From NCBI GenBank assembly GCA_964399295.1, contig CAYNQD010000001.1, positions 203,944 to 267,943 on the forward strand: a stretch of DNA of 64,000 nucleotides, given 5' to 3'. The DNA is from an uncultured Candidatus Saccharibacteria bacterium (GTDB taxonomy: Bacteria > Patescibacteriota > Minisyncoccia > Phycocordibacterales > UBA918). The position numbers and the translations under genes are program-made. The notes below the pieces were generated by a model. The model was not told the DNA's origin, did not search any database, and worked only from the letters and a program-made list of their open reading frames with translations. This document shows, piece after piece, positions 30,421 to 63,307 of the stretch (within the stretch, counting starts at the first letter, position 1; every line of letters starts with the position of its first letter).

Positions 30421-30427
30421 CCAGTTA

Positions 30428-32474: not shown

Positions 32475-32549
32475 GGCCCTATCGTCTAATGGTTAGGACA
32501 GCAGGTTTTCATCCTGCAAATCGGAGTTCGATTCTCCGTAGGGTCACCA
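32475..32549 (+). tRNA. tRNA-Glu (anticodon UUC), 75 nt including CCA
   Basis: Manual fold: 7-bp acceptor stem GGCCCTA/TAGGGTC, anticodon stem CAGG/CCTG with loop TTTTCAT, T-arm CGGAG-TTCGATT-CTCCG. Confidence 0.85.
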
Positions 32550-33976
32550 TAACGCAATTCTTCACTTTCAGCGATGGCTGCAAACGGTTTTTGCAAAGTA
32601 AAGACAAGGGTTTTTCCATCAATCTCCAGGTTCGAGGTAACTGATTTTAGCAAATCACGGTTTTCATTCTCATTAGCCTGTTTTTTGTTGATAGCTATAG
32701 CTTTTACCAGTTCGAGGAATTTTATTGTCTTGTAGTCGTTTTTGAACATTTCTGTTTGTACTTCTGCGAGGTCTTCCTCTCTGCTCAATCTTTCATGCAG
32801 TAATTTTTGGTGGCGGTTGTTAAACGTTTCTTTGTCAATCATGCGGTCGATAAAAGCATCGGTGAGACGAGTGATTCTTTCATCAACTTCAGCCAGTTTA
32901 AGTTTGGCGGACTGGATTAATTCAGCTTGGTGCTGGTAGCGTTCCGCTTGGAGGACGGTAAATTCAGCTTCCAGTTTGTTGATGGAAGTCACCGGCAAAC
33001 TAAGCTGATCAATCATAGCTTGCATCTGTTCATCAACTTTGTCTTCTCGGATACAAGCCCGAGGACAGTCTTTGGTATGACAACGGTAATAGACCTGCCC
33101 TTTCTGGTATTCAGCAATCAGGTTATAGTGGCAATGCAGACATTTGATAGATTTGCGGTAGCGGAACTGGTGTTTTAGACCGGTATTCTTGTTTCGACCG
33201 TGCAAAATATCTTGTACGCGGTCAAACTGGTATTTCTTGATCAATGGCTCATGAATACCCTGGTAGCGTTCACCAGTGGAGACGATATGAATAATACCGA
33301 TATAGAATTCATTGCCGAGCATGGTGGATAAACCGTTTCTGGATACTCGATTGCCCGAGCGGTTTCGCAGTCCCGCCTGATACATTTCCCTGCCTAAAGT
33401 ATAGAGACTGTGTTCACCGGTAGCGTAGAGCTTGAAGGCTTGTTGCACCAGTGGGGCCATTATCGGATCAGGTAGTTTTGGCAGTCCACGACCTTGGTCG
33501 AGGTAACCTAAAGGAGCGCGGAGTGGATAGAGTCCTTGCCGTAATCGGCCTCGAAATCCTTTTTTCACCTCATCCCGCAAGTTGCGGATAAAATCCGCCG
33601 CTACCACGGCCTGGATATCAGCGGCCAGTCGTCCACCGCGTGATTGCAGGTCTAGGCTTTCATGAGCAAAATGTACTTCAATACCTTTGTCGATTAGAGA
33701 ACCAAGATCAGCCCAGTCTTTTAGATTCCTGGCACTCCGGTCTATCTTGTGAATAATTACCCCGCCAGCTTGGCCTTTCACTAAAAGTCCAAGCATTTTG
33801 GTGAAAATAGTACGACCGCGTTTAGCCGCTGTTTCCTTTTCTTCAAACCACTGTTTGATGGTTAGGTTGTGACGACTGGCGTAGTTTTCGATAGCAAAAC
33901 GTTGTTCTGCTAAGGAAGAACCTTGGGTTCCTTGTTTGATGGTTGATACTCGGATATAGGCATAAACATATTTCAT
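32486..33976 (-). CDS. Large serine recombinase (integrase); its 3′ end overlaps the 3′ half of tRNA-Glu
   Basis: N-terminal resolvase catalytic domain YIRVSTIKQ…SLAEQ…HKIDRSARN, recombinase domain, zinc-ribbon Cys cluster, coiled coil. Confidence 0.8.
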   Translation of the reverse strand: MKYVYAYIRVSTIKQGTQGSSLAEQRFAIENYASRHNLTIKQWFEEKETAAKRGRTIFTKMLGLLVKGQAGGVIIHKIDRSARNLKDWADLGSLIDKGIEVHFAHESLDLQSRGGRLAADIQAVVAADFIRNLRDEVKKGFRGRLRQGLYPLRAPLGYLDQGRGLPKLPDPIMAPLVQQAFKLYATGEHSLYTLGREMYQAGLRNRSGNRVSRNGLSTMLGNEFYIGIIHIVSTGERYQGIHEPLIKKYQFDRVQDILHGRNKNTGLKHQFRYRKSIKCLHCHYNLIAEYQKGQVYYRCHTKDCPRACIREDKVDEQMQAMIDQLSLPVTSINKLEAEFTVLQAERYQHQAELIQSAKLKLAEVDERITRLTDAFIDRMIDKETFNNRHQKLLHERLSREEDLAEVQTEMFKNDYKTIKFLELVKAIAINKKQANENENRDLLKSVTSNLEIDGKTLVFTLQKPFAAIAESEELRYGDPTENRTPICRMKTCCPNH

Positions 33977-34197
33977 ACTGCATCAGGTTTAGATTCCTTA
34001 ACTTTATCATTATTATCGGGAAAGTCACGAATCTCATCTAACCTGCCTTCGGCTTCCAGACGCAAGAATATTCGATACAACACCGCTAAATAGGCGCGGA
34101 AATTGACGGTAGCTTCTTTTAATTCTTCATCGCTAGCGTCTGGCATAAAGTGCTGCACAATTTCAGCGATTTCCGGTGGTGGTGGGTATTTTTTCAT
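33973..34197 (-). CDS. Small acidic protein upstream of and overlapping the integrase (candidate recombination directionality factor / accessory protein)
   Basis: 74-aa ORF with a 4-bp ATGA overlap with the integrase start; no recognised family. Confidence 0.3.
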   Translation of the reverse strand: MKKYPPPPEIAEIVQHFMPDASDEELKEATVNFRAYLAVLYRIFLRLEAEGRLDEIRDFPDNNDKVKESKPDAV

Positions 34198-34304: not shown

Positions 34305-35609
34305 ATGCAAAAAAACCTGTCCAAAGCAAGAAAAGTAGTGTCTGAGTGTCTGACCAATGGCACCATGATTGAGATGGTTTATGATCGGGAAAACAAACGA
34401 ACCGGCCTGGCTTGTTTGGAAGTGGGAAATATTTCAATTAATCACTCGTACCAATCACCAGCAGGAGAAAAACTAGAGCCGATCCCCGCTACCAATAACC
34501 TCATCAAACACGGAGCGTTGTTATTGGCAGAAAAACCGGTTCCCTATGCATCAGTGTCAAAGCTGATAGCAGACATCCAAGCCTATATCTACCGCTACGT
34601 TGATATCTCTGATCATTTTCGTCAGATCGCCAGCTACTACATCCTCCTCACCTGGGTTTATGATGCTTTTAATGAAATTCCCTATCTGCGCCTACGGGGT
34701 GATTTTGGTTCTGGCAAAACCCGCGCCTTGTTGGTGATTGGATCACTGTGTCACAAAGCTTTTTTTGCCAGTGGTGCTTCCACCGTGTCGCCCATTTTTC
34801 ATACGCTGGATACTTTTCGGGGAACGTTGGTGTTTGATGAAGCGGATTTTCGCTTTAGTGATGAGAAAAATGAATTGGTGAAAATCTTTAATAACGGCAA
34901 CGTGCGCGGTTTTCCGATTCTCCGCACCGCTATCACCATTCAGCGTGAATTTGATCCTCGTGCCTTCCATGTCTATGGCCCCAAGATTGTGGCGATGCGG
35001 AAATCGTTTGCTGATCCTGCTCTGGAAAGTCGGTTTCTAACTGAAGAGATGGGCCAGAGCAGTCTTAGACGGGATATTCCCATAAACCTTCCTGATGTAC
35101 AGCAGGAAGAAGCGTTAGCGCTAAGAAACCAACTGCTGATGTATCGTTTTAAGATGTTACCTACCATCAAAGTCAACGACTCGTTACTTGATTCTTCCCT
35201 TTCACCACGACTGAACCAAATACTTATACCGCTACTTTCAATTATTGATGATGATAGGTTAAGAAATGGTATCCGCGAGGCAGTACGGTCGTTTGATCAA
35301 AAACTGTATGCTGAACGATCAGCGTCAATGGAGGCTGGGGTGTTGGAAATAATCCAGGAGTTATATCAGCATGGCGGTAGTGGGTCTATTCCAGTTTCGC
35401 AAATAGCTTCTATTTTTATTAGTCGATTTTCCACTGAGTATCAACGCCCAATCACAGCCAGAATAGTTGGCGGGGTACTGAGGAAACGCTTGCGTTTAGT
35501 GACATACAAAAGCCACGGGGTTTATGTGCTACCAGTGACGGAGAAACCAAAAGTAGCTGAGCTTTGTATTCGTTACGGGGTAACGGAACGAAATATTGAT
35601 GTGAATTGA
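34305..35609 (+). CDS. P-loop NTPase of the integrated element (primase-C / replication-mobilisation-like)
   Basis: Walker A GDFGSGKT and Walker B LVFDEADF; no housekeeping orthologue recognised. Confidence 0.4.
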   Translation: MQKNLSKARKVVSECLTNGTMIEMVYDRENKRTGLACLEVGNISINHSYQSPAGEKLEPIPATNNLIKHGALLLAEKPVPYASVSKLIADIQAYIYRYVDISDHFRQIASYYILLTWVYDAFNEIPYLRLRGDFGSGKTRALLVIGSLCHKAFFASGASTVSPIFHTLDTFRGTLVFDEADFRFSDEKNELVKIFNNGNVRGFPILRTAITIQREFDPRAFHVYGPKIVAMRKSFADPALESRFLTEEMGQSSLRRDIPINLPDVQQEEALALRNQLLMYRFKMLPTIKVNDSLLDSSLSPRLNQILIPLLSIIDDDRLRNGIREAVRSFDQKLYAERSASMEAGVLEIIQELYQHGGSGSIPVSQIASIFISRFSTEYQRPITARIVGGVLRKRLRLVTYKSHGVYVLPVTEKPKVAELCIRYGVTERNIDVN

Positions 35610-35784: not shown

Positions 35785-37663
35785 TAGTGTCTGCCCGAAA
35801 ACTCACAATTCAAATAAATAACAATGGATTACGTTTAATTCCGGCAAAGAAGATTAGAAGGAATTTGAAATAAAACGACGTAGATAGGCGGTTTTGTCGT
35901 ATTTCAGGCCACAAAAACCCCAAACTTCGACAATAGTTTGAGAGAATATTCTTTATCACAAACCAACTTCGTTCGAATGGAATCCTCATGCGCGTAGTCC
36001 GAAAGACCCAAATGCAGTTAGGTGAAATTGACGTATCACAAATCAAATTTGATTTGCATTCCCGAGACGATATCCCCAAGGTGTTGCGCGGATTGCAGCA
36101 TCTATATCTGAACGAAACATTACGCGAACAGGTATTTGCGTTGCTGGGAAATGAAATTGCACCCACAGTGAACAAGCAAAATGGCCGTCCCGGCATGACA
36201 CTCTGGCGTATTCTGGTTTTTGGCGTATTGCGTCTGGACTTGAATATCGACTACGACCGTCTTCATGAGCTGAGCAACCAGCATCGAACCTTGCGGCAAA
36301 TGCTCGGCCATGGCTTGTACGATGAAGACAGGAAATATGCTTACCAGACCCTGGTGGATAACGTTGGACTGCTCACGCCGGAATTACTGGACAAACTGAA
36401 CCAGGTCATCGTAGCAGGAGGACATGCGCTGGTAAAAAAAAAGGACGGCGCAGCCCTGCGTGGGCGGTGCGACTCCTTTGTGGTTGAAACCGATGTTCAT
36501 TTTCCAACCGACATCAATTTGTTGTGGGACGCGATGCGCAAGGCGATTACGCTGACCGCGCAATGGAGTGAAAACCAACAACACAGCGATTGGCGCCAAT
36601 ATCGTTACAACCTGCGTCTATTGAAACGAAAGCTGCGTGAGGTGCAGCAAAGCAAGCGTCGCGCCAGCACGGATCAGAAGCCCATTCAGGTTATGCAGGC
36701 GCATCAGCGCTATCTTAATCAGGCGCAATATTACCTGAACAAAATTCAAACCACCTTGCCCGGATTGATTGCGATAACCGCGACCGAACGCCTGTTATGC
36801 ATTGAAATCGAAGGCTACATCCGTCATGCACAGCGTCAAATCAGCCAGATCGAACGCCGCGTAATGCAGAATGAGACCATCTTGCACGAAGAGAAAGTAT
36901 TTTCTGTTTTTGAGCCGCATACCGAATGGATCAGCAAAGGCAAAGCCGGTGTGCCGGTTGAGCTGGGTGTTAAAGTCTGTATTCTGGAAGATCAGCATCA
37001 ATTCATCCTGCATCATCACGTCATGACAAAACAAACCGATGATCGTATCGCGGTTGAAATGGTCACCGAGGCCAGGAAACGTTTTCCCGCCCTCAGTGCC
37101 TGTAGCTTCGATAAAGGCTTTCATTCGCCCGCCAACCAGACCGAACTGGCCCGGCAGCTCGACCAGGTCACGCTGCCTAAAAAGGGCAAGCTGTCCAAAG
37201 CGCGTCAAGCGGTAGAGCAGGCAGAAGAATTCACCAGAGCGCGTCATGCACACTCAGCGGTAGAATCGGCAATCCACGCGCTGGAAGTGCATGGTCTGGA
37301 TAAATGTCCCGATCATGGCATTAACGGTTTTAAACGGTACGTCGCACTGGCCGTTGTCGCCAGAAATATCCGTCGTATCGGAGATATTTTATGGCAGCGT
37401 GAAGAAGCACAAGAACGCAAGGCAAGCGCGCAACGAAATTCAAAGTATCGGCGAACTGCCTGAAACTTTTTCCAAACGAAAAACAGCGTCTGATTGTAAA
37501 CAATCAGCGGTGACTGCTGGGCAAAATTCGGGGTTTTCGTGCAAGATTTCCTGAAAATCACAAATGAACGTGTTTTTGGCGGAATCGTTCCGCTGAATTT
37601 TGTTCAAGGTGATTAAGAATTAGGCAGGCTGGTGGTGAAAATGGGGTTTTCGGGCAGACACTA
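35785..37663 (+). mobile_element. Insertion sequence (~1.88 kb), GC-rich (~50%) relative to the host, with 18-bp terminal IRs TAGTGTCTGCCCGAAAAC
   Basis: IR_L 35785–35802 and IR_R 37646–37663 are perfect reverse complements; a single transposase ORF lies inside. Confidence 0.7.
35988..37463 (+). CDS. DDE transposase of the IS (IS4/IS5-superfamily-like; exact family not assigned)
   Basis: 491-aa ORF filling the IS; DSFVVETDVHFPTD-type first Asp region; codon/GC bias foreign. Confidence 0.6.
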   Translation: MRVVRKTQMQLGEIDVSQIKFDLHSRDDIPKVLRGLQHLYLNETLREQVFALLGNEIAPTVNKQNGRPGMTLWRILVFGVLRLDLNIDYDRLHELSNQHRTLRQMLGHGLYDEDRKYAYQTLVDNVGLLTPELLDKLNQVIVAGGHALVKKKDGAALRGRCDSFVVETDVHFPTDINLLWDAMRKAITLTAQWSENQQHSDWRQYRYNLRLLKRKLREVQQSKRRASTDQKPIQVMQAHQRYLNQAQYYLNKIQTTLPGLIAITATERLLCIEIEGYIRHAQRQISQIERRVMQNETILHEEKVFSVFEPHTEWISKGKAGVPVELGVKVCILEDQHQFILHHHVMTKQTDDRIAVEMVTEARKRFPALSACSFDKGFHSPANQTELARQLDQVTLPKKGKLSKARQAVEQAEEFTRARHAHSAVESAIHALEVHGLDKCPDHGINGFKRYVALAVVARNIRRIGDILWQREEAQERKASAQRNSKYRRTA

Positions 37664-37731: not shown

Positions 37732-38106
37732 ATGAAAAAGAATAATAAAAATAAGTTTGCCCGGTGCTATTTACGCACATACCGGCGCAATTGGGGTTTA
37801 ACCCAAAAAGAATTGGCGACCTTGATTGGTACCGCCAGCAGTGTACAGATTAGTCGTTACGAAAACAGCAAACGCGCCCCCAAATTAGAAGTCGCGCTTG
37901 CCTGCCAAGTCATTTTCGGGGTTCCCCCGTCAACCATGTTTCCAAATGCCTACGCCTTGTCCGAGGAAGAAGTCATGAGGAATATGTGTCAAATGGACTT
38001 GGCGCTCCAAAACACTACCAATCTTTCAGGATTACGCAAGCGAGAACTGTTTAGTATCGCTCTCAGGCGTGTTTTAGACGAATCCCCTTTAGTTAAAAAG
38101 GTATGA
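37732..38106 (+). CDS. XRE-family helix-turn-helix regulator
   Basis: GLTQKELATLIGTASSVQISRYENSKRAP HTH_3-like block. Confidence 0.6.
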   Translation: MKKNNKNKFARCYLRTYRRNWGLTQKELATLIGTASSVQISRYENSKRAPKLEVALACQVIFGVPPSTMFPNAYALSEEEVMRNMCQMDLALQNTTNLSGLRKRELFSIALRRVLDESPLVKKV

Positions 38107-38627
38107 GTGTGGTTTTAAACAAAAGCCTAGTGTTGGCTATCTATCCTTTCAGTCGTGGATTTGCCTTTGTGCTATTTGAAGGCCCAGATAGTCCATTTGA
38201 CTGGGGCGTGAAGGAAATCAGGGATAAGCAACGAAACGTTAAAACCTTGGATGAGATAAAGGAGCTGATTGATCGTTATTGCCCGGAAGCCCTAGTGATG
38301 GAAGATATCAGCGACCGTGCTGGCCGACGATCAACCCGAATCAAGAAGCTTTATCAAATGATTGTTCATCTAGCCATCACTGAACACCTTGATCTGCATC
38401 GGATTTCCCATGCTGATACCAAACGGTATTTTGCCGTTATCGGTGCTGTTACCAAATACGAAATCGCTAAAGCCATTAGTCGACAAATACCGGCTTTTGG
38501 TCACCGGTTACCGAGAGTCCGTAAACCGTGGATGAGTGCTGATCCTAGGCAAAGTCTCTTTGATGCGGCGGCTTTGGGATTGGTCTTCTACGATAATCGC
38601 GGGGTACCCAGTCCTTTTGAAGCGTAA
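38103..38627 (+). CDS. Hypothetical protein, possibly an RNase H-like (RuvC/YqgF-like) fold
   Basis: LAIYPFSRGFAFVLFEG…LVMEDI resembles RuvC motif I/II spacing; 4-bp overlap with the upstream HTH gene. Confidence 0.3.
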   Translation: MSVVLNKSLVLAIYPFSRGFAFVLFEGPDSPFDWGVKEIRDKQRNVKTLDEIKELIDRYCPEALVMEDISDRAGRRSTRIKKLYQMIVHLAITEHLDLHRISHADTKRYFAVIGAVTKYEIAKAISRQIPAFGHRLPRVRKPWMSADPRQSLFDAAALGLVFYDNRGVPSPFEA

Positions 38628-38696
38628 TACAAAGCTTTTCCTTGTCATCGAGGAGTACCGAATTCCCGGTATTCCTCACGTGACAAGGAGGAAGTT

Positions 38697-39602
38697 ATGT
38701 TTCAAAGAAACGCGAGTACCAAAACCGATATCTACGCCAAGATAACCAATGAAATTATTCAGGCCATTGAAGCTGGTACCGGTGATTTTGCTATGCCCTG
38801 GCATAAACAAGCTTATGCTGGACTGCCACGGAATACTGTGACTAAACAGCCATACCGAGGTATTAATACGTTGTCTTTGTGGTTAGCTAGGCGGAGTGCG
38901 GGTTTTGCCAGTTCATACTGGGCATCATATTTGCAGTGGAAATCACTGAAAGCTCAGGTGCGGCAAGGTGAAAAGGGTTCAACTGTTGTGTTTTATAAGC
39001 AGCTGGAGAGCGAGGAGGAAAACGAAGACCGTGACGAAACTGAAAACCAAGCTCGAGCGGTGATCCGGTATTCCCACGTGTTCAACGGTGATCAGGTGGA
39101 TGGTTGGTCACAGACTGAAGCTCCAAGTCTGGCCAACCACACTAAATTTGCTAAAGCGGTGTGTTTTATCAATGCTCTTAAAAGCGATATCAAGCATGGT
39201 AGTGATACTGCTTATTATAGTCCAGCGCAGGATTGTATCTTTATGCCGAATCAGTCAATGTTTCAGGATACCAAAGCTGGTTCTGCCATTGAAGGCTACT
39301 ATGCGGTTTTGTTCCATGAGCATATTCATTGGTCTGGACACAAGACACGGTTAAACCGTGACATGTCTGGGAAATTTGGCTCTAGTTCTTACGCTATGGA
39401 AGAGTTGGTGGCAGAGCTTGGCGCATCGTTTCTGTGTGCTACGCTTGACATCAATACTTACCCGAGACCAGATCATGCTTCATACATTGCCAGCTGGCTT
39501 CAGGTACTGAAGGAACACAAAACGGCGATCTTTGCGGCGGCTGGTGCGGCTTCGAAAGCCAGTCTGTTCTTGGAAACATTAGTGGAGACTAATCGAAATT
39601 AA
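38697..39602 (+). CDS. ardC: ArdC-like antirestriction protein (ssDNA-binding N-domain plus zincin metalloprotease C-domain)
   Basis: ITNEIIQAIEAGTG…PWHK…KQPYRGINTLSLW…GEKGSTVVFY (DUF1738-like) and HEHIHWSGH. Confidence 0.75.
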   Translation: MFQRNASTKTDIYAKITNEIIQAIEAGTGDFAMPWHKQAYAGLPRNTVTKQPYRGINTLSLWLARRSAGFASSYWASYLQWKSLKAQVRQGEKGSTVVFYKQLESEEENEDRDETENQARAVIRYSHVFNGDQVDGWSQTEAPSLANHTKFAKAVCFINALKSDIKHGSDTAYYSPAQDCIFMPNQSMFQDTKAGSAIEGYYAVLFHEHIHWSGHKTRLNRDMSGKFGSSSYAMEELVAELGASFLCATLDINTYPRPDHASYIASWLQVLKEHKTAIFAAAGAASKASLFLETLVETNRN

Positions 39603-43071: not shown

Positions 43072-43120
43072 AGTAGTTCTTTTTTTAACCCGACCTTGGT
43101 GGTCGGGTTTTTCTTTGTAT
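42874..43120 (+). repeat. Direct repeat copy 2 (ardC 3′ end plus terminator)
   Basis: See copy 1. Confidence 0.8.
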
Positions 43121-51992: not shown

Positions 51993-52094
51993 AATGAAAA
52001 AACTTCAATTTTAACTGTTCTTCTTATAACGATTCTGAACTAAAATACTTTAGAGGTTTTATTCCTATTATAATATTCATTTATTCAGTATCTT

Positions 52095-54146
52095 ATGGCT
52101 GTTAGTGAGGTGGTGATGAATACAAAAAACGAACCAAAACGGGTCGGTATCTGGGTTCGCGTATCAACGGAAGATCAGGTACGGGGTGAAAGTCCCGAAA
52201 CCCATGAACGTCGCGCCCGCTTATACGCTGAAGCTAAAGGTTGGAACGTGGTGGAAGTCTATCGCCTAGATGCTGTCTCCGGTAAAACCGTTAAAGATAC
52301 CCCAGAAGCCAAACGGATGCTTATTGATGTGCAAGATGGCCATATCACTGGGTTAATCTTCTCCAAACTGGCCCGTTTGGCCCGTAACACCAAAGAACTA
52401 CTGGAATTCTCAGAAATCTTCCGCGACTGTGGAGCTGATCTCATTTCACTGGCCGAAAGCATCGATACCTCTACCCCCGCTGGTCGACTCTTCTATACGA
52501 TGATTGCCGCGATGGCGCAGTGGGAACGCGAAGAAATCTCAGAAAGAGTGGCGGCAGCGGTACCGATCCGAGCTAAAGCTGGTCAACCAACTGGTGGGCA
52601 AGCGCCGTTTGGTTATGAGTGGAGAGATAAGAAGCTGTATATTGATCCAGCCGAAGCCAAAGTCCGTAAATTGATCTTTGAATTGTTTCGTGAACACAAA
52701 CGCAAAAAATTAGTAGCTAGACTATTAAACGATCAGGGTTATCGTACCCGAAACGGTGGTAAATTCTCTGACACCACCGTTGACCGACTGCTCCGTGATC
52801 CAATTGCGATGGGTACCCGCAGGGCCAACTATACTTGTACCAAAGACAACAACAAAGCCTGGAAGCTAAAACCAGAATCAGAGTGGGTTTATTTAAAGGT
52901 AGAACCCATTGTTTCAGAAGAACTATGGCAGGAATGCAATCAATTCTTGGATGAGCAAAGAAGCAAGTTAAAGCGGGTTACTAAATCAGCTGTTTATCTG
53001 TTTTCTGGCTTAGCGTACTGTATTTGTGGGAAGAAGATGTATGTGCCGTCCAATAGCCCAAAATACACCTGCAAAGAGTGTCGCAACAAAATACCGGTTG
53101 ATGATTTAGAAGCGGTATTTCATGAACAAATCAAGAATTTCTTGGTATCAGAAAAAGAGATAGTTAATCACTTAGAACAGGCTAATGTTGAGGTGAAAGA
53201 AAAGGTTGAACTCCTGGGGGTATTAGAAAAGGAAACAAATAAGCTTAATCAGGAAATTGATAAGCTGTATGACCTCTACCAGTCCAGTATGATTGATAAA
53301 CATGGATTTGGGCTGAAATACAAGCCACTAGCTGAACGGCGAGAACAGTTAGACGAACAAATCCCTAAACTGCAAGCTGAGATTGATATTATGAAAATAT
53401 CGCAATTGTCTCAGGAAGTAGCTATTGCCGAAGCACGTGATTTATATGGTCGCTGGCCCTCACTTCCCTTTGCAGAAAAAAGGCGGATCGTGGAAGCGAT
53501 TGTGGAGAAGATAACGATTGGTAACGGTGAGATTGAAATCAATCTTTTCTATACTCCCCCAGCCTCAGAGATACCGCAACACAACTTAAATAACGGAGGA
53601 ATAACTAATATTTATTCCTCCTTAAATCATGGTAATTTGGCAACAGATGCTCATAGACGCGTCGCCTTTTTGCCATTTGTCCGTACAAAGCTTAAATCAT
53701 TGATTCCTAAGTCATATGATTTTGAGCCTAAGGCTCTGGGTGAGCATCTACTGAAGCGGAGGTTATTTCTTGAGTTGTCACAAGCTGAGGTTGGCAAGCT
53801 ATTCAATGTTTGCTCCTTCACGGTTGGTAACTGGGAAAAAGGACATTCAGAACCAAAAATATTCCAGATACCGATTCTAATCGAATTTCTTGGTTACGAT
53901 CCGATTAATCACCACTCTAATTCAATTGCTGAATTATTGCTGGCTAAACGGAAGAAATTAGGCTGGACTCAGAAAGTGGCTGCTAAAAATCTGGGCGTTG
54001 ATCCGTGTACTTGGTCGAGCTGGGAATGTGGTAGAGCAATCAAGACTTATAAACATCGGCGGTTGGTGGCTGAGTTTTTAAATATGGATGAGGGGGTTGT
54101 TGATGTGATAATGAAATTGCAGTGGAATGAGCTACATGAACGGTGA
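52095..54146 (+). CDS. Large serine recombinase with a C-terminal extension carrying two XRE-type HTH modules
   Basis: VGIWVRVSTEDQ…SPETH catalytic domain, recombinase domain, Cys4 zinc ribbon (CICGKK…CKEC), coiled coil, then LSQAEVGKLFNVCSFTVGNWEKG and LGWTQKVAAKNLGVDPCTWSSWE. Confidence 0.75.
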   Translation: MAVSEVVMNTKNEPKRVGIWVRVSTEDQVRGESPETHERRARLYAEAKGWNVVEVYRLDAVSGKTVKDTPEAKRMLIDVQDGHITGLIFSKLARLARNTKELLEFSEIFRDCGADLISLAESIDTSTPAGRLFYTMIAAMAQWEREEISERVAAAVPIRAKAGQPTGGQAPFGYEWRDKKLYIDPAEAKVRKLIFELFREHKRKKLVARLLNDQGYRTRNGGKFSDTTVDRLLRDPIAMGTRRANYTCTKDNNKAWKLKPESEWVYLKVEPIVSEELWQECNQFLDEQRSKLKRVTKSAVYLFSGLAYCICGKKMYVPSNSPKYTCKECRNKIPVDDLEAVFHEQIKNFLVSEKEIVNHLEQANVEVKEKVELLGVLEKETNKLNQEIDKLYDLYQSSMIDKHGFGLKYKPLAERREQLDEQIPKLQAEIDIMKISQLSQEVAIAEARDLYGRWPSLPFAEKRRIVEAIVEKITIGNGEIEINLFYTPPASEIPQHNLNNGGITNIYSSLNHGNLATDAHRRVAFLPFVRTKLKSLIPKSYDFEPKALGEHLLKRRLFLELSQAEVGKLFNVCSFTVGNWEKGHSEPKIFQIPILIEFLGYDPINHHSNSIAELLLAKRKKLGWTQKVAAKNLGVDPCTWSSWECGRAIKTYKHRRLVAEFLNMDEGVVDVIMKLQWNELHER

Positions 54147-54352
54147 AATGATTTTTTCCCATTTGCTGGAATTGAGATGTGTAACTAGTTCGATAAATAC
54201 ATTGTTTTTTCAAATCACTTTTCATTCATGATAATTTTAAAGTTGGTTAATTAGAGCTTTACAGATGAAATCATTGAGGTGTAAATTGACAAATCTAAGA
54301 ATTAAATAAAAAATTCGGAAAAATTCATAATAGAAACGATGGAGATTGAATA

Positions 54353-55228: not shown

Positions 55229-57949
55229 TCACCTTTCCTTCCCCTTCTGCAACGACCGCGCAATAACCTCAGAAACCGCCTTTCTTCTAGCAGCCGCATC
55301 ATCTGAGTCAGTAACTTGCTGGACGGTACGGACTTTGTATCCCCGTACCACTTGCTCGGTCGGGGTGAATTTGCCTAGACTATCGAGGAATTCAATGATC
55401 TGTTCAGAGGTTATGTACCGAACCCGTCCTTGATCTTTGAGGTCAAGATTTTCTTCCACGAATTTGGCCAGTTTCTTCACATGCCGTTCTGTTCCGCCAA
55501 TCAATACAACCTCTGAATAACCAGCAGCAAAGCATTTTTCAAGGCCACCCAGTTCCCAATCTTTGGTGGTGGTGACTGAAACTTGGCAAGCCACGCGTAA
55601 TTTATCTCGTACCAGTGATATATCTACCCGTCCAGCGCCATCCAGAATCGTTTCCTCAATAGTGGCACGGAAACCGCGCTCTTCAGCTAATTGTTTGATC
55701 AATTGCTGCAAGTATTTATGTTGTCGTCCACCACGGCCAGGCTCTGGAATATCCTTTGGTGGTGTCGATTTGGCTCTTTTCTTCGGTGGCGTGGTTTCGA
55801 TTGATGGGATCGGTTCAGCAGCAGTTGGTATTTCCGGTTCAACTGGAATCTCTACGGTTTGCGGTGTTTCAGGTGACACTGTTTCTTTCTTGGTTGTCTG
55901 TTTAGCTGGTTTTGGCTCAGGAAAAGCGATTTCTTCAGGAATTAGCGGTGGTTCGCTATATAGCTCCCGATTGCGATCAATTAGAGCTTCATATTGGAAA
56001 GCGGTGATTCTCGGTTGACTCTCCACAAACCCCAAGGGAATAGATACAGCCAGTGCTTTAGCAGTATAGTTTTTGACGTAACAGGCAAATTCGGTTTGCT
56101 CCTTCCCTTTTCTCATACCAAGCAAAAAATCAGCGTCAGTACGGTATTCTGAATCTAAGATACCGGCATCTTTGGCACTCAAGCCACCAGCAAACTTGAT
56201 GGTGGTGGAAGCTAATACACTAGCCCTGAGACCACCAGACAGCTGATCGAGATTTTGATGCGCAAATACTAAGCCTACCCGGTATTTTCTAGCTTGGTTT
56301 AGTAGATGTGAGATATTGTCGTCAAAATAGTCTTGGGCTTCATCGATATAAACAAAGGCGGAGCGTCGCTTATGTGGTGGCATGGCGGCACGCTGAATGG
56401 AAGCCTGGGCAATTAAAGCAATAAAGAAACGTCCAAAAATGGCTGCACCATCTTGTCCCAGCAAATCCTTGGCCGTATTGATAAGAATGATCTTGCCTTG
56501 ATTTAATAATTCAAAGATATCAATTCTGTTTCGAGTATGAGAAAACATCCGTTCCAAGGATGAATTGGATAGTACTCCCCACAGACGGGTTAATATCTGC
56601 TTCTTGGTTTCACTAAACTTTCTATCAAAGAATTGGGTAGCAAAGAAGCTACGAGCGGTGCCGGTCAGTTTCTCCATATAGGGCCGGAACCGTTCACTGT
56701 TTTCCATTAATTCTCGTAGCGTATGGATATTGGCGTCCGGTATTTCCAAAAGTAGCCGAGCTAAATAACGGAAAATCAGTCCTTGGCGTTGGGTTAATTC
56801 GGCTCCGAGTAGCGCCCCAAAGAAGTATTCATACAGTTCAATGGTGGCATTCAGTATCTTTTCTTTATCTACCGGCGCATAACCACTTAACCGATCTTGG
56901 TTAAAGTCAAACATATTGAGACAAACCGGATACTCAATATCATTCGGATCAACTATCACCAAGCGTTCAGCCAGGGCTGGATCGCTAAAGTATCCCAGTT
57001 TAACTATGGTGTTGATCAAATCACCCTGGCTATCAATCACCACAATCGAACGACCATCTTCTTGCGAGCGCACAATGTCATGATGAATCAGAAACTGCAT
57101 TAATTGGGTTTTGCCGTGACCGGTACCACCGACGATATGAGTATGTTCAAAGCGGGCTGGGAAAGGAATGGCAAACGGTAGCTGGCGGTATAGCAGTGAC
57201 TGGAATGGCGTGTCACCCAAATAAGTATCAACCAATACCGCTGGTTCATTAATTCGGCTTTCGGTGGGTAGGATTACCTTCGGTGGCCGGTTGAATTTGG
57301 CGTCTGGTGGATGGCCGGAAGCTCTTAAGATATTCTGATCAAAGACTTCCCGCTGTCTTCCAAAAACCTGGGCTTCAACAACGTCTGCGTCATAGAAAGT
57401 CACCATGAGGCGCTGGATGACTTCCGGCAGGTTGTCGCACAAATCATAGGCATGTGCCTTCGGAAACACCACTGAATCATCATCAGCCAACCCGTTTTCA
57501 TCAACATCAATAAAGGCTGATTCGGGAAAATATTCAAGCATCCCTTTAAAAAGCCAGACCAGCTTTTCCCGCCAAATTGATAGCAAACGATCCGGTGAAT
57601 TGAGAAAGTGTTTATGGCGTTTCAGGGTGGTACGGAGTCGTATCCCCTCTTCAATGGTGAGGTTTTTGATCTCGGTGTCATTGGGTAAATCTCCAATCAT
57701 CGAATCTTCATACAGCAATTGTTCGATGGTGTAATACAAAGCGCCACCGAGTGGTACTCCAGGCAGTGTGCCGTGCCGTTCGCAAGCATCAGCAATTATA
57801 TCCACGATAAAACTGCTGATTTCATCTTGGTTATTAAGGGGGTGATGTATACGCTGTGTGCGTTTAAGCTCATGCAGAAGAGCCAGCGTTTCTGCCTCTT
57901 CTTTCTTTTTCGGTGAAGGCAGAATCCAATTAAGAAAATTAGATGACAC
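55229..57949 (-). CDS. FtsK/HerA/TraG-superfamily P-loop ATPase (906 aa) with an N-terminal domain, a Pro/Glu-rich linker and a C-terminal possibly nuclease-like domain
   Basis: Walker A VGGTGHGKT, Walker B FVYIDEAQDY, T4CP/TraG-D_C-like AHQNLDQL; C-terminal block DGAGRVDISL…ACQVS. Confidence 0.55.
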   Translation of the reverse strand: MSSNFLNWILPSPKKKEEAETLALLHELKRTQRIHHPLNNQDEISSFIVDIIADACERHGTLPGVPLGGALYYTIEQLLYEDSMIGDLPNDTEIKNLTIEEGIRLRTTLKRHKHFLNSPDRLLSIWREKLVWLFKGMLEYFPESAFIDVDENGLADDDSVVFPKAHAYDLCDNLPEVIQRLMVTFYDADVVEAQVFGRQREVFDQNILRASGHPPDAKFNRPPKVILPTESRINEPAVLVDTYLGDTPFQSLLYRQLPFAIPFPARFEHTHIVGGTGHGKTQLMQFLIHHDIVRSQEDGRSIVVIDSQGDLINTIVKLGYFSDPALAERLVIVDPNDIEYPVCLNMFDFNQDRLSGYAPVDKEKILNATIELYEYFFGALLGAELTQRQGLIFRYLARLLLEIPDANIHTLRELMENSERFRPYMEKLTGTARSFFATQFFDRKFSETKKQILTRLWGVLSNSSLERMFSHTRNRIDIFELLNQGKIILINTAKDLLGQDGAAIFGRFFIALIAQASIQRAAMPPHKRRSAFVYIDEAQDYFDDNISHLLNQARKYRVGLVFAHQNLDQLSGGLRASVLASTTIKFAGGLSAKDAGILDSEYRTDADFLLGMRKGKEQTEFACYVKNYTAKALAVSIPLGFVESQPRITAFQYEALIDRNRELYSEPPLIPEEIAFPEPKPAKQTTKKETVSPETPQTVEIPVEPEIPTAAEPIPSIETTPPKKRAKSTPPKDIPEPGRGGRQHKYLQQLIKQLAEERGFRATIEETILDGAGRVDISLVRDKLRVACQVSVTTTKDWELGGLEKCFAAGYSEVVLIGGTERHVKKLAKFVEENLDLKDQGRVRYITSEQIIEFLDSLGKFTPTEQVVRGYKVRTVQQVTDSDDAAARRKAVSEVIARSLQKGKER

Positions 57950-58330
57950 TTAATTTATCTCAATAACTTCCTCTCCCCCGAAAGTACTGGCAGCACCAAG
58001 TACATTATGAAAGGTGTGGGCCGCTTCTTTGATTTGTTCTTCAACCGCGATCATTTCCACGATATCTTTGCATTCTACCGTCTTTCCCTTTTCCAGATCG
58101 TTGACGGAGATAGTGAGATTAATCATTTTGAAAGCCACACGAGAAGCCAGCCCGATAAGACCACTGCCTGGATCAACAATCTTGGCTCGTTCATACAGCA
58201 TAGTATCGCCAAGCTTGTATTTCTTGATGTTGGTTTTTTCTTCATCAGTTAGCTCCGCTCTAACTGACACCGTGAAGATTATCTTGCCCATCATGCCGGT
58301 CTTTTGATCCCGACGCAACAACAGCTTCAT
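57950..58330 (-). CDS. 126-aa hypothetical protein sandwiched between the two ATPases
   Basis: Stop and start abut the neighbours (58330/58401 and 57950/57949); no known domain. Confidence 0.4.
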   Translation of the reverse strand: MKLLLRRDQKTGMMGKIIFTVSVRAELTDEEKTNIKKYKLGDTMLYERAKIVDPGSGLIGLASRVAFKMINLTISVNDLEKGKTVECKDIVEMIAVEEQIKEAAHTFHNVLGAASTFGGEEVIEIN

Positions 58331-58400
58331 CGCTACCTCCTTGAATGTATGAGATAAGTAGCTAAAGTATATATATTTTATGGTAAGTCGGGAAGAAAAT

Positions 58401-59594
58401 TTAACAATTGAAACTACCTAAATCATGCGGATGGATTGTGGTGGCACTAAATGGTCGGCTGGGTGCGCCGTCTATCATGAGTTTTAGGTAGATTCCACGG
58501 TTTGGTAGATTGATAAGGTCGGTGGTGTTGAAAACTGGTTGGAATTCCCTAGCTATGAGTGGCGCATCCTCTGGCCCCAGTCGAAATGAAATGAGAGTGC
58601 CAGCATTGGCTAATACGGCGTGTCGCACGTCTGATTCCAGTTGATACAGGTGCTGATTGGCTAAAACTAAGCCGATACGGTATTTACGCAGTTCTGAGAC
58701 CATATTGGCGATGGAAAGTGTGGTGAAGCTCTGGAATTCATCAATATAGATCAGGAAATTACGTCTTTCAGTTTCTGGTATATCTCCACGGCTCATAGCC
58801 GCTAGACCTAAGGTAGTGACTAAAATCGCTCCAAACAATGAAGCACTGTCTTCTCCTAAGCGACCTTTGGCTAAATTCACAATCAGTATCTTCCCTTCGT
58901 CCATAATGGTACGAAATTGCAGATTGACCGGAGCAGTGGTGAAAATCCGTCGTAGCTTTGGATCGGCCAGAAATGCCCCAACTTTGTTTTGTATGGGTGC
59001 GATCATTTCCTGACGGTAGCGGGGGTTATAGGCAGCGAATTCTTCTGTCCAGAAATGACGGACTTGTTCGTTTTTAACTTTGGCAATGACAGTCTGACGA
59101 TAGGTTTTATCAGCAATCATCCGCAGGATATCGGGCAGTTTAGCGTCACCAGCTTCAATCAAGGCGTAGAGGGTATTTCTGAGTATATGCTCCATGCGTA
59201 CACCCCAAGCTTCAGTCCAGAGTTTTTTGAAGGCTTCCATCAGGCCAGAGACGGCTAGTGGTATACGGGATGAGTGTACCTGGCGGAGTGGGTTATACCC
59301 GTATGGTTGGTGGATATCAGGGACGTTGATATAGACCAGATTATTTCTTCGCCTTTCTGGAACGTTGGCTACCAGTCGTTCGGCTAAGTCACCATGCGGA
59401 TCAATGACGCAAAGACCGCGACCGCTGTGGATGTCTTGCAGAGCTAGGGTTTCTAAAAGAGTAGTCTTCCCTGCTCCAGTACGGCCAATTACATAGATAT
59501 GGGAAAAGCGATCATCGAGTTTGATGCCGAAGGTGCGATGGGGATGGCGGGCGTTGGTGTGGGCGAGGTATGAAATGGATTGATTTGAATACAC
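58401..59594 (-). CDS. FtsK/HerA/TraG-superfamily P-loop ATPase (397 aa; a bare ATPase domain with no TM segment)
   Basis: Walker A IGRTGAGKT, VIDPHGD, Walker B LIYIDEFQSF, LANQHLYQL; paralogous to the core of the 906-aa protein. Confidence 0.55.
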   Translation of the reverse strand: MYSNQSISYLAHTNARHPHRTFGIKLDDRFSHIYVIGRTGAGKTTLLETLALQDIHSGRGLCVIDPHGDLAERLVANVPERRRNNLVYINVPDIHQPYGYNPLRQVHSSRIPLAVSGLMEAFKKLWTEAWGVRMEHILRNTLYALIEAGDAKLPDILRMIADKTYRQTVIAKVKNEQVRHFWTEEFAAYNPRYRQEMIAPIQNKVGAFLADPKLRRIFTTAPVNLQFRTIMDEGKILIVNLAKGRLGEDSASLFGAILVTTLGLAAMSRGDIPETERRNFLIYIDEFQSFTTLSIANMVSELRKYRIGLVLANQHLYQLESDVRHAVLANAGTLISFRLGPEDAPLIAREFQPVFNTTDLINLPNRGIYLKLMIDGAPSRPFSATTIHPHDLGSFNC

Positions 59595-59782: not shown

Positions 59783-60220
59783 CTAAGGTTTAGTGTAAAT
59801 TTCCGGTAACAACTCGCTAGCTTTTTTCTTTATTATATCTCCATTCTTATTTAGCAGAATAACCTCTAAATCAGGTGTATGCTCGGCCATAATCTGTCGA
59901 CAATTTCCGCATGGTGATACTATTTTAGGTTCGCAGCTATTATCGCCATTCCAAAAAACAGAAACGATTTTATCAAACTGAGTTTCCTGTTTATAAAGGG
60001 CATTTGAAAGCGCTATTGGCTCAGCACATATGTCAAATCCATCGTTATCCAGATGTAGACTACTATAAACACTACCGCCACAGTAAAGAACACATGCGAC
60101 GTGATGTTTATTCTTAACATAGCGTTTCTTTATTAGATCAAATGCTTGTTTTATGACGAATTCATCGTGAACTAACTGTTCTGAAGAACTCAGTTTGTAT
60201 TCATAGCTTTTCATAGCCAA
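59783..60220 (-). CDS. Cytidine/deoxycytidylate-deaminase-fold protein (Cys-type CDA / blasticidin-S deaminase-like)
   Basis: CAEP…SPCGNCRQ zinc-ligand motifs. Confidence 0.6.
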   Translation of the reverse strand: MAMKSYEYKLSSSEQLVHDEFVIKQAFDLIKKRYVKNKHHVACVLYCGGSVYSSLHLDNDGFDICAEPIALSNALYKQETQFDKIVSVFWNGDNSCEPKIVSPCGNCRQIMAEHTPDLEVILLNKNGDIIKKKASELLPEIYTKP

Positions 60221-60731
60221 ATTTTTTTAACTCATCTTCAATATCTGTATAACCGCGTCCTGCTAGTAGGCCTCCGGCAATAAATTTTTCTTGTGTTACA
60301 TCCGCTAAACATATACCAGGCGGAATAAATTCTTCCATTTCTTCTTTAGTTAAAAATTCGAAATCTAATAGAGCAAACCCGCGAAGCGATTCTTCAAATA
60401 TGTCTAATTCTGCTTCTTTACCATCAAAGTTAAGAAAATAACGGGTTTTATAAATTGCTCTATCTGAAGCTTTTGATAACTCTATAAATTCGGTTTCAGT
60501 AAGAGGTATTGTCATTTCGGTATGTGAAGAAGCGTCATTGGTGTTTATAGGCGTTTTTTTTGTAAATTCAAATTTATCAGCCTTACGCCTTAATCTGATT
60601 CGTGGATGCTTATTTAAATCAGCTGGAATATAAATATCGATCATTCTAGTACTAGCTGCTTTTTCTAAACCTTTTGGTAAAGCCCTTAATAGAAATGTTC
60701 TTTCGTACTCAATGTTTTTTATGTTTGACAT
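60201..60731 (-). CDS. CYTH-domain (triphosphate tunnel metalloenzyme) protein
   Basis: N-terminal EYERTFLL matches the CYTH E.E.K/R.FLL signature. Confidence 0.55.
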   Translation of the reverse strand: MSNIKNIEYERTFLLRALPKGLEKAASTRMIDIYIPADLNKHPRIRLRRKADKFEFTKKTPINTNDASSHTEMTIPLTETEFIELSKASDRAIYKTRYFLNFDGKEAELDIFEESLRGFALLDFEFLTKEEMEEFIPPGICLADVTQEKFIAGGLLAGRGYTDIEDELKKFGYEKL

Positions 60732-60790
60732 TATAGTTTTTAATTTGTTTGGTAATATCTATTATTTATAACTGATTAATTTTTACCACA

Positions 60791-63156: not shown

Positions 63157-63307
63157 TGTACTATTCCTTAATATGTTTTTTGGAGAAGTTTCTGTTATTG
63201 CCTATTATCATTACGTTAAGGCAATATTAATAGAAAAGTGAGATAATTCTAAGGAATCTGAAAAAAATCCTTATACCTCATAAATATAATTATTTTATAA
63301 AAAATTA

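What the first reader, a model, noticed from the sequence alone, without database searches (positions are those of the whole stretch)
32486..32549. Integrase ORF overlaps the 3′ half of tRNA-Glu on the opposite strand
The last ~20 codons of the serine recombinase (…RTPICRMKTCCPNH*) are encoded by the reverse complement of the tRNA T-arm and anticodon arm. Either the element supplies a replacement tRNA 3′ end (att core inside the tRNA), or the annotated ORF over-runs the real stop.
Basis: seen in the sequence. Interest (0 to 1): 0.5.

Follow-up and report, generated by a model that had tools for sequence, protein, structure and literature searches.

The report
Integrase tail swapped by tRNA integration
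A 31.7-kb mobile element in a Patescibacteria genome inserted at the last bases of a tRNA-Glu gene using a serine integrase whose recombination site lies inside the end of its own gene, so the integrated integrase now ends in 19 amino acids read from the antisense strand of the tRNA.

Summary
tRNA-Glu(UUC) lies at 32475-32549 (+). A 496-aa large serine recombinase ORF lies at 33976-32486 (-), and they share 64 nt.

The ORF neither over-runs a real stop nor follows the classic pattern in which the element supplies a replacement tRNA half. The integrase's attP sits inside its own 3' coding end. A 94%-identical relative in the unrecombined form (L164, 516 aa) matches the window up to 32541, then continues with a native 39-aa tail. 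Empty tRNA-Glu sites in related hosts end ...GGGTCAC|GAG. All three sequences share a 4-bp core, GTGA/TCAC (tRNA nt 71-74; window 32544-32547).

Integration therefore left the tRNA body untouched. It added only the "CA" that completes an encoded CCA, and replaced the integrase's tail with 19 tRNA-antisense codons.

The matching attR, now decayed, lies about 225 nt past the window end (L167).

The same geometry recurs in 11 other loci of this family, at tRNA-Glu, Ala, Arg, Lys and Asp. Both junctions were recovered in L024 and L041. It also recurs in at least two further LSR clades.

The attP arm carries an invariant T-loop-like TCGAAC, conserved at synonymous sites, 6 bp further out than in the tRNA.

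Verdict: a new variant of a known kind. No step has been tested experimentally.

The parts
32475..32549 (+). tRNA-Glu(UUC), intact. Nucleotides 1-74 are host DNA or core. The last two bases of the encoded CCA (32548-32549) come from the element.
   Evidence: Presumed empty sites in related hosts end ...TAGGGTCAC|GAG... with no encoded CCA.
32544..32547 (.). attL core TCAC (GTGA on the integrase strand). This is the only block shared by attP, attB and attL, so the crossover dinucleotide lies within it.
   Evidence: Three-way comparison of the window, L164 (attP) and L086/L135/L090/L103 (attB). Homology breakpoints fall at window 32541.
32520..32543 (.). B arm of attL: tRNA T-arm plus acceptor 3' strand. 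The T-loop GTTCGA lies at 32526-32531.
   Evidence: The same TCGAAC motif occurs in attP, 6 bp further from the core.
32548..32575 (.). P' arm of attL, element DNA, lying inside the integrase coding sequence (codons about 468-477). The outer limit is approximate.
   Evidence: 94% identity to L164 on this side of the core only.
32486..32545 (-). Hybrid tail of the integrase. Residues 478-496 (DPTENRTPICRMKTCCPNH) and the stop codon TAG are read from tRNA antisense. The stop comes from the D-loop CTA.
   Evidence: AlphaFold2 gives pLDDT below 50 for residues 476-496.
32486..33976 (-). Large serine recombinase (LSR1, 'int'), 496 aa in the integrated form. Catalytic Ser11 and four invariant Cys residues are present.
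33973..34197 (-). Conserved 74-aa ORF whose stop overlaps the int start. It is a candidate accessory or directionality factor, which is inference only.
   Evidence: Syntenic in L001-L009, L164-L166 and others. It matches no family.
34305..35609 (+). Conserved 434-aa backbone gene with a Walker-A-like GDFGSGK motif. It is divergent from int.
   Evidence: A 42%-identical homologue sits in the clade-B element L108.
35787..37659 (+). ISNCY-family insertion sequence (transposase at 35988-37463) inserted between the 434-aa gene and the HTH gene.
   Evidence: NCBIfam transpos_ISNCY_1, E=2.3e-161. It is absent from L164 and L165, whose alignments to the two sides overlap by 8 nt.
37732..39602 (+). Backbone genes: HTH_3 regulator (37732-38106), 174-aa protein (38103-38627) and ArdC-like anti-restriction protein (38697-39602).
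52095..54146 (+). Second large serine recombinase (LSR2, 683 aa) with C-terminal HTH_3 domains. It is not at a junction in this element.
55229..59594 (-). Module of coupling-protein-like ATPases: 906 aa, 126 aa and 397 aa (TraD/VirD4-like). In unrecombined relatives this module lies downstream of the int tail, which makes the two arrangements circular permutations.
59783..64000 (-). Cargo running to the window end: cytidine-deaminase-like, 176-aa, DegT aminotransferase and GFO/IDH oxidoreductase genes. The element continues about 225 nt beyond 64000 to attR.
   Evidence: L167 is 100% identical to window 52074-64000. It carries ...TATGCGTT GTGA ACCATACCGAGCCACA--TCGAAAT... at L167 3642, which corresponds to window position about 64,225-64,228.

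Best explanation
This is the left junction (attL) of a 31.7-kb integrative element with conjugation-type genes. The element spans window 32548 to about 64,224 and sits in a Patescibacteria (Paceibacteria-like) chromosome. It was inserted by its own large serine recombinase. This family's attP lies inside the last ~100 nt of the integrase ORF. The P' arm is made of codons about 468-477. The core is GTGA, in codons 477/478 (Gly-Asp/Glu). The P arm encodes the start of a roughly 39-aa, poorly conserved tail. The attB is the extreme 3' end of a tRNA gene. Its core is tRNA nt 71-74, and its B arm is the acceptor 3' strand plus the T-arm. Shown by sequence comparison: recombination at the core leaves the whole tRNA body as host DNA, adds the two bases that complete an encoded CCA, and joins the integrase body to tRNA antisense. 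The integrated protein therefore ends in 19 tRNA-dictated residues and stops at a TAG derived from the D-loop. The native tail stays at attR, and excision would restore the full-length gene. Inferred: the zinc-ribbon domain reads a TCGAAC motif. In attB this motif is the universal T-loop. In attP it is a mimic placed 6 bp further out. That arrangement would explain how family members use Glu, Ala, Arg, Lys and Asp tRNAs. Also inferred: the swapped tail is dispensable, because the fold ends near residue 475. This particular copy is probably immobilised, because its attR P arm has a 2-nt deletion and a substitution in the invariant motif, the tail remnant is frameshifted, and two IS elements are inserted in the element.
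For: 1. Homologues are mostly 514-517 aa. Their identity to the window protein ends at RYG(D/E)P.
2. P0121 (L164-L166) is 94% identical at the nucleotide level up to window 32541 and unrelated beyond it. The attL/attP/attB comparison shares only GTGA.
3. Presumed empty sites beside the same FAD-oxidase gene in related hosts end GGGTCAC|GAG..., without an encoded CCA.
4. The window element's own attR is in L167. It has a host-like flank, then GTGA, then a P arm and tail remnant 83% identical to L164's tail.
5. Two small elements show both junctions with 8-bp identical cores and an intact family-type tail at attR: L024 (tRNA-Arg, 7.8 kb) and L041 (tRNA-Glu, 5.8 kb).
6. The gene orders are circular permutations. 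In L002, L005, L050 and others, the T4CP module follows the int tail. In the window it lies at the far end of the element.
7. The constraint on the P arm is at DNA level. Across 64 loci TCGAAC is invariant and third-codon positions have IC 1.8. The motif Arg codon is CGA in 64 of 64 loci, against 17% of Arg codons overall.
8. The motif sits 6 bp further out in attP than in the tRNA (5 bp in clade B). The LI integrase model places the ZD motif 5 bp closer to the centre in attB (PMC3783163).
9. AlphaFold2 predicts a folded protein to about residue 475, with pLDDT below 50 for 476-496.
Against: Nothing here is experimental. The attP comes from a 94%-identical relative and not from an excised copy of this exact element. 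The sequence beyond that relative's attP does not match the window. The crossover is localised only to a 4-bp core and not to a dinucleotide. The P' arm shows no clear DNA-level conservation or symmetry with the P arm. The spacing shift is 6 bp, against the 5 bp of the LI model. About 68 of the 80 family loci keep an unrecombined attP, several on Mb-size chromosomal contigs, and how those elements are held in the chromosome is unexplained. The gene beyond attR (a DEAD/ResIII helicase) is not found downstream of empty sites in relatives, so the right-hand host flank is supported only by the short trailer AACGCA shared with L090.
Confidence: 0.85

Rival explanations
1. Annotation artefact. The real integrase ends upstream of the tRNA, and the ORF merely runs on through tRNA antisense because no stop codon intervenes.
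For: The last 19 residues are dictated by the tRNA sequence and are predicted to be disordered. They carry no family conservation beyond what the tRNA imposes.
Against: Family homology, including near-invariant P479, runs to the junction at 32541. Native proteins continue for about 39 more residues rather than stopping earlier. No in-frame stop lies upstream. The ORF is therefore shortened and chimeric, not over-extended.
Confidence: 0.03
2. Classic tRNA-island design, as with tyrosine integrases. The element carries a substantial copy of the tRNA 3' half in attP, replaces the host copy, and leaves a displaced tRNA fragment at the far end.
For: The tRNA is intact after integration, and its CCA is completed by element DNA.
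Against: The window holds no second copy of the tRNA 3' part. attP (L164, L002) is not tRNA sequence beyond the 4-bp core and a TCGAAC mimic in a different register. attR carries the int tail and no tRNA fragment. The recombinase is serine-type.
Confidence: 0.04
3. The element was inserted by something else (LSR2, an IS element or illegitimate recombination), and the abutment of int to the tRNA is incidental.
For: The element has a second LSR and two IS elements. Most family members keep an unused attP.
Against: The junction falls at the same codon of int in 12 loci across five tRNA species. The cores are identical at both ends where both ends are visible. LSR2 is internal to the element.
Confidence: 0.03
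4. The overlap is a selected regulatory device and not a neutral by-product. Integration would switch the integrase's C-terminus, removing a degron-like -AA end. It would also place int's 3' end under convergent read-through from the tRNA promoter. Either effect would set integrase levels according to integration state.
For: Native tails end in -AA in 20 of 120 and 14 of 69 clade-A proteins, and in 4 of 18 native clade-B proteins. About 0.6% is expected by chance. No terminator-like site follows the tRNA before 33166. The native trailer hairpin is displaced to attR. The architecture recurs in LSR clades only 25% identical to each other.
Against: Roughly 80% of native tails do not end in -AA, including that of the closest relative, P0121 (...GRKAV). 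There are no expression or stability data. attP lying next to int, or overlapping it, could simply reflect compaction of the integration module.
Confidence: 0.15

Closest known systems
Phage and ICE large serine integrases (LI/A118, Bxb1, phiC31, TP901-1, SPbeta SprA)
   Same: The domain order is the same: resolvase, recombinase, then zinc ribbon with a long coiled coil. The att sites are short, with only a few bases of attP/attB identity. A distal motif lies closer to the centre in attB than in attP, as in the LI model (PMC3783163).
   Different: No specific family model reaches its cutoff. The best match is XisF at 84.7 bits against a cutoff of 375. The target is the 3' end of tRNA genes. 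attP lies inside the integrase's own coding sequence, so the protein's C-terminus depends on integration state. The motif shift is 6 bp here, against 5 bp.
SSV-type 'suicidal' tyrosine integrases of archaea (PMC7253208, PMC8371274)
   Same: The recombination site lies within the integrase ORF, and integration into a tRNA gene splits the gene (abstract seen).
   Different: Those are tyrosine recombinases, and their gene is split into two inactive parts. Here the enzyme is a serine recombinase. The split falls after the last folded element, so all catalytic and DNA-binding domains stay in one ORF.
Tyrosine-integrase genomic islands at tRNA 3' ends (Islander/TIGER class; PMC7192596)
   Same: The element inserts at the 3' side of a tRNA gene without inactivating it, and the integration module sits at the element's end.
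   Different: Those elements carry a tRNA fragment in attP and leave direct repeats of tens of bp. This one shares 4-8 bp and contributes only 2 nt to the tRNA.
S-Int islands at t(m)RNA genes predicted by TIGER (14 of 297; PMC7192596)
   Same: These are serine integrases associated with tRNA gene targets. [quoted passage not shown]
   Different: Those cases were few, and the text read here gives no att-site anatomy for them. Here attL, attR, attP and attB are all reconstructed, for several tRNAs and at least three LSR clades.
SCCmec CcrAB integration at the 3' end of rlmH (orfX); comparison made from memory
   Same: An LSR-mediated insertion at the extreme 3' end of a conserved gene that preserves the gene's function.
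   Different: That target is a protein-coding gene, and the recombination site is not inside the recombinase gene. CcrA and CcrB models score far below their cutoffs here.

Membership tests
Large serine recombinase (serine integrase) | N-terminal resolvase-type catalytic domain with the serine nucleophile | tested here: met
   PF00239, E=1.9e-24, residues 4-148. Y7, R9, V10, S11 and T12 are invariant across 35 homologues.
Large serine recombinase (serine integrase) | Recombinase domain (PF07508) followed by a zinc ribbon with an inserted coiled coil | tested here: met
   PF07508, E=1.8e-11. Zn_ribbon_recom scores only 20.6 bits against a cutoff of 25.3. However, C279, C282, C299 and C304 are invariant, and AlphaFold2 predicts a helical hairpin at 329-430.
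Large serine recombinase (serine integrase) | Short att sites, with attP/attB identity limited to a small core around a 2-bp crossover | tested here: met
   The core is 4 bp in the window lineage and 8 bp in L024 and L041. The crossover dinucleotide itself was not resolved.
Large serine recombinase (serine integrase) | Distal (ZD) motif shifted towards the centre in attB relative to attP | tested here: inconclusive
   TCGAAC lies 6 bp closer to the core in the tRNA than in attP. The shift is 5 bp in clade B. This is consistent with PMC3783163, but which domain reads the motif was not tested.
Large serine recombinase (serine integrase) | Excision requires a recombination directionality factor | not testable with these tools
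   A conserved 74-aa ORF overlaps the int start and matches no family. It is a candidate only.
SSV-type (suicidal) integrase | attP lies inside the integrase ORF | tested here: met
   for the window lineage; for the family.
SSV-type (suicidal) integrase | Tyrosine recombinase fold and catalysis | tested here: not met
   The protein has serine recombinase domains only.
SSV-type (suicidal) integrase | Integration splits the gene into two non-functional parts | tested here: not met
   The break falls at codon 477/478, after the last predicted folded element, which ends near residue 475. All Pfam domains remain in one ORF.
Tyrosine-integrase tRNA island (Islander type) | attP carries a tRNA gene fragment, and a displaced tRNA fragment marks the distal end | tested here: not met
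Integrative conjugative or mobilisable element | Coupling protein together with a relaxase and/or a type IV secretion system | tested here: inconclusive
   TraD/VirD4-like (397 aa) and VirB4/TraD-like (906 aa) ATPases match only far below family cutoffs, and ArdC is present. No relaxase or T4SS structural genes were recognised. Not every ORF was scanned.

The most novel reading that the evidence does not exclude
LSR integration into tRNA 3' ends with attP embedded in the integrase ORF may be a major, so far undescribed route of island acquisition in Patescibacteria. It is seen in at least three LSR clades. The resulting swap of the C-terminus, together with convergent tRNA transcription, may act as a built-in sensor of integration state that tunes integrase stability or expression. 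Because the recognised motif is the universal T-loop, such enzymes could in principle be retargeted to native tRNA genes of any organism.
Probability: 0.15. Interest if true: 0.75.

Novelty: new variant of a known kind. Interest (0 to 1): 0.6.

Why it matters
Serine integrases have been regarded as avoiding tRNA genes. The one survey read here found 14 of 297 such cases and called for proof (PMC7192596).

This work reconstructs all four att sites for a widespread family, with 552 relatives among 185,579 species-representative genomes. It shows that the target is the discriminator/CCA end of tRNAs and that attP is written into the integrase's own last codons.

That has four consequences:
- It explains why many database recombinases end in ...DPTENRTP...CPNR, which is tRNA antisense. 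In one clade this applies to 80 of the top 120 homologues.
- It gives a simple sequence rule for finding both ends of such islands.
- It provides natural support for the shifted ZD-motif model of attP/attB discrimination.
- It points to enzymes that read a motif present in every tRNA gene, which is relevant to integrase engineering.

It also identifies tRNA-Glu as an insertion hotspot in Paceibacteria-like genomes.

Tried and rejected
- Direct repeats of the tRNA, or of its 3' 27 nt, were sought in the window. None were found.
- tblastn with homologue tails, regexes and a position-weight-matrix scan were run for attR inside the window. None found it. It proved to lie about 225 nt past the window end.
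- An exact look-up of the window integrase in the contig index found nothing on record.
- Genes downstream of empty tRNA-Glu sites were compared with window 59.6-64 kb, with no match. The DEAD helicase beyond attR is likewise absent from those loci. The right-hand host flank is therefore not confirmed by synteny.
- L164's sequence beyond attP was tried as a way to locate the window's far end. Only the ~100-nt tail matches; the cargo differs.
- The PDB sequence search matched only N-terminal catalytic domains, so it gave no help with the C-terminal boundary.
- Phage and IMG/VR searches gave no phage match and only 3 viral-contig matches, so the family is not phage-borne. PLSDB holds one family member.
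- I considered that the native tail might be a frameshifted reading of tRNA antisense. I rejected this by translating by hand, not through a tool call.
- Literature searches for LSR, tRNA and Patescibacteria together found no description of this architecture.

Full report
**Observation.** The window contains one tRNA, tRNA-Glu(UUC), at 32475-32549 on the + strand (ARAGORN; Rfam 63.2 bits). On the opposite strand, ORF 33976-32486 encodes a 496-aa protein with Resolvase, Recombinase and a weak zinc-ribbon match, which makes it a large serine recombinase. Its stop codon and last 20 codons lie inside the tRNA.

**Where the protein really ends.** A database search found mostly 514-517-aa homologues at up to 85% identity, covering about 97% of the query. 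Their C-termini show that identity to the window protein stops at ...RYG(D/E)P. The homologues then continue with (Y/H)RxxSRTF...KLIHDK..., whereas the window reads TENRTPICRMKTCCPNH.
- A minority of homologues also end in tRNA-antisense-like peptides (P0012, P0054, P0057, P0103).
- The ORF therefore does not over-run a true stop. It is about 20 aa shorter than the native form and chimeric.

**Unrecombined form of a near-identical integrase.**
- The window protein's 90% cluster has a second member, P0121 (516 aa), encoded on three contigs, L164-L166.
- These contigs are 94% identical to the window at nucleotide level from the ArdC gene through int, and the match ends at window 32541. They lack the IS that interrupts the window copy.
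- Aligned at the junction, the window (attL) reads ..CGTTATG GTGA CCCTACGGAGAATCGAACTCC.
- L164 (attP) reads ..CGTTATG GTGA ACCATCCCGAGCCACATCTCGAACTTTT.

**Empty sites.**
- A metagenome scan with the neighbouring FAD-linked oxidase returned 80 loci with the conserved order helicase, FAD oxidase, tRNA-Glu.
- Named relatives of the oxidase are Paceibacteria, Nomurabacteria, Kaiserbacteria and Patescibacteria.
- In many of these loci the tRNA ends ...TAGGGTCAC followed by GAGTACAAAAA... and a hairpin, or by AACGCAC..., with no encoded CCA.
- On the integrase strand these attB sites read ..(CTC/AAT/GTT) GTGA CCCTACGG...
- The only block common to attP, attB and attL is GTGA, which is TCAC, tRNA nt 71-74, at window 32544-32547.
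- Everything 5' of the core in the tRNA is host DNA. Only C75 and A76 (32548-32549) come from the element, and they complete an encoded CCA that the empty sites lack.

**The other end of the element.**
- No tail remnant or P arm was found inside the window.
- L167 is 100% identical to window 52074-64000 over 11,927 nt and extends 3.9 kb further.
- At L167 3642, equivalent to window position about 64,225, it reads ...TATGCGTT GTGA ACCATACCGAGCCACA--TCGAAATTTTAAAAACGTG.... This is a host-type trailer (AACGCA, as in the empty site L090), then the core, then a P arm and tail remnant 83% identical to L164's tail.
- The remnant has a 2-nt deletion and a C-to-A change in the otherwise invariant motif, and it is frameshifted.
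- The element therefore spans 32548 to about 64,224, or 31.7 kb. All but about 225 nt lies in the window.
- With two IS insertions as well (ISNCY at 35787-37659; an IS1595-type transposase at 44389-45360), this copy looks immobilised.

**Generality within the family.**
- A scan of species-representative genomes found 552 relatives, of which 80 were examined.
- In ten of them an antisense tRNA overlaps the int 3' end at the same codon. These are Glu in L010, L028, L041 and L078; Ala in L011 and L069; Arg in L024; Lys in L067; and Asp in L071. L032 is cut off at a contig end. L001 and L003, found earlier, bring the total to twelve.
- By record title these are mostly Patescibacteria MAGs.
- The remaining ~68 loci have the long form and no tRNA.
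- A position-weight matrix of the long-form junction found the missing attR in two small integrated elements. L024 has GGTGCCCC at 3628 and 11408. L041 has GGCAGCCC at 5654 and 11426.
- In each case attR is followed by an intact family-type tail (...PRTWD.LL...).
- Gene order agrees. In long-form loci the int tail is followed by the coupling-protein module, which in the window lies at the far end of the element. The two arrangements are circular permutations of each other.

**attP is a DNA-level feature.**
- Across 64 long-form loci (47-83% aa identity), the 30 nt after the Gly codon have the consensus GGTGnnCCnnATCGGGACATACCTCGAAC.
- Third-codon positions there reach an information content of 1.8 bits.
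- Mean third-position IC is 1.06 within the arm, against 0.51 upstream and 0.13 downstream.
- The motif Arg codon is CGA in 64 of 64 loci, whereas CGA makes up 17% of Arg codons in the same genes.
- TCGAAC is the antisense of the tRNA T-loop. In attP it lies 6 bp further from the core than in the tRNA.
- Rutherford et al. showed for LI integrase that the zinc-ribbon motif in attB is shifted 5 bp towards the centre relative to attP (PMC3783163).
- I infer that the same domain reads the T-loop in attB and its mimic in attP. This would explain why different tRNA species can serve as targets. It is inference, not a test.

**Consequence for the protein.** AlphaFold2 with 35 homologues (mean pLDDT 79.5) predicts the last folded elements at 447-475 and gives pLDDT below 50 for residues 476-496. 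The break falls just after the fold, so the hybrid protein retains every domain. Whether it is active is untested.

**Other clades.**
- At the same tRNA-Glu, other LSRs only ~25% identical also read into the tRNA. Clade B (L092, L108, L115, L122) ends ...CDPTENRTPISRMKT*. Clade C (L114, L138, L158) ends ...SSLVIPRRIELRFHG*, in another frame.
- Of the top 120 homologues of the L108 protein, 80 are tRNA-fused and 18 have a native ...CDP(I/T)AWLSEL... tail.
- Their attP reads (T/G)GTGACCC...TTTCAGAAC, with GAAC 5 bp further out than in the tRNA.
- The architecture is therefore not peculiar to one family.

**Comparison with known systems.**
- The protein is a large serine recombinase by domain content, but no curated family model reaches its cutoff.
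- The closest conceptual precedent for attP inside int is the SSV-type 'suicidal' tyrosine integrases of archaea (PMC7253208). These differ in chemistry and in destroying the gene.
- Tyrosine-integrase tRNA islands carry a tRNA fragment in attP. This element does not.
- Mageeney et al. reported 14 of 297 S-Int islands at t(m)RNA genes. They stated that such use had not been reported before and needed proof (PMC7192596).
- Durrant et al.'s survey of 6,207 LSRs does not mention tRNA.
- My searches found no description of this arrangement.

**Limits.**
- Everything above is comparative sequence analysis.
- The attP comes from a 94%-identical relative whose cargo differs.
- The crossover is localised only to 4 bp.
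- The right-hand host flank lacks synteny support.
- Most family members keep an unused attP, some on Mb-size chromosomal contigs, and I cannot say what holds those elements in place.

**Verdict.**
- The finding is real and explained.
- It is a new variant of a known kind: serine-integrase integration, here at a tRNA 3' end, with attP embedded in the integrase ORF.
- Interest is moderate to high for mobile-element and integrase specialists.

Noticed in passing
Homologue C-termini; L024 3628-3790: Native integrase tails are otherwise unconserved, yet many end in -AA-COOH. This holds for 20 of 120 and 14 of 69 clade-A proteins and 4 of 18 native clade-B proteins, against about 0.6% expected. The attR remnant in L024 ends ...AQLAA*. 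This resembles an ssrA/ClpX-type degron (from memory). The tRNA-fused form loses it.
   Followed up: partly
window 35787-37659: An ISNCY-family IS (transposase at 35988-37463) is inserted between the 434-aa gene and the HTH gene. It is absent from L164 and L165. The alignments to the two sides overlap by 8 nt, which suggests a target-site duplication.
   Followed up: partly
window 42661-43120 and 44389-45360: A 136-aa ORF is a duplicated 3' fragment of the ArdC-like gene (MPTase-PolyVal; about 91% identical to L164's ArdC end). It lies next to an IS1595-type transposase, which points to rearranged cargo.
   Followed up: no
window 52095-54146: A second large serine recombinase (683 aa) has C-terminal HTH_3/MqsA-like domains. 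It is conserved in many relatives (L003, L007, L016 and others) but is not at a junction here. Its site and role are unknown.
   Followed up: no
L084-L163 (tRNA-Glu next to the FAD oxidase): This tRNA-Glu is an insertion hotspot. At least six different sequences follow it. They include two or more other LSR clades whose ORFs also run into the tRNA antisense, and several inserts that supply an encoded CCA.
   Followed up: partly
L004-L083 record titles: All tRNA-integrated copies are in Patescibacteria-type, unnamed or (L071) Bdellovibrionales-labelled MAGs. All copies with an unrecombined attP are in other phyla, including Mb-size chromosomal contigs. The closest relatives of the window integrase (77-83%) are in Nitrosomonas MAGs.
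   Followed up: partly
L164 10102-10140: A second P-arm copy (TGTGAACCATGCCGAGCCACATCTCGAACTTTT) lies 2.7 kb downstream of the int attP, in the same orientation. It is preceded by sequence unrelated to int.
   Followed up: no
L168 1-120: This contig from another sample starts with an int 3' end, 93% identical to window 32539-32597. That end is joined at GTGA to non-tRNA sequence (GCCTAATCGAGATGCGACC...). About 1.8 kb further on comes the truncated DEAD helicase and then the window element's attR. It may be a secondary-site insertion.
   Followed up: no
L086, L135, L144 and others, just 3' of tRNA-Glu: In presumed empty sites the native trailer forms a long inverted repeat, GGGTCACGAGTACAAAAATG...CATTTTTGTTCGTGACCC. 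It pairs the tRNA's acceptor 3' end with a downstream copy.
   Followed up: no
L171 (NZ_CP081110.1, 97127-98674): The 136-kb repABC plasmid of the cultured strain Sulfitobacter mediterraneus M342 carries a family member (44% identity). It is in the unrecombined form, with TTCGAAC in register, and is followed by a coupling-protein-like gene. This offers an experimental handle.
   Followed up: partly
window 28696-30843 (-) and 30428-32386 (+): The mechanically called helicase and FAD-oxidase ORFs overlap by 416 nt at their 5' ends. Relatives align only from about residue 80-90 of the oxidase, so the starts are probably over-extended.
   Followed up: no
window 45907-49296 and 50919-51809: The cargo includes a 1129-aa protein with RTX, VWD and Calx-beta domains and an Endonuclease I homologue. 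L164 and L168 carry related HemolysinCabind genes in different positions.
   Followed up: no
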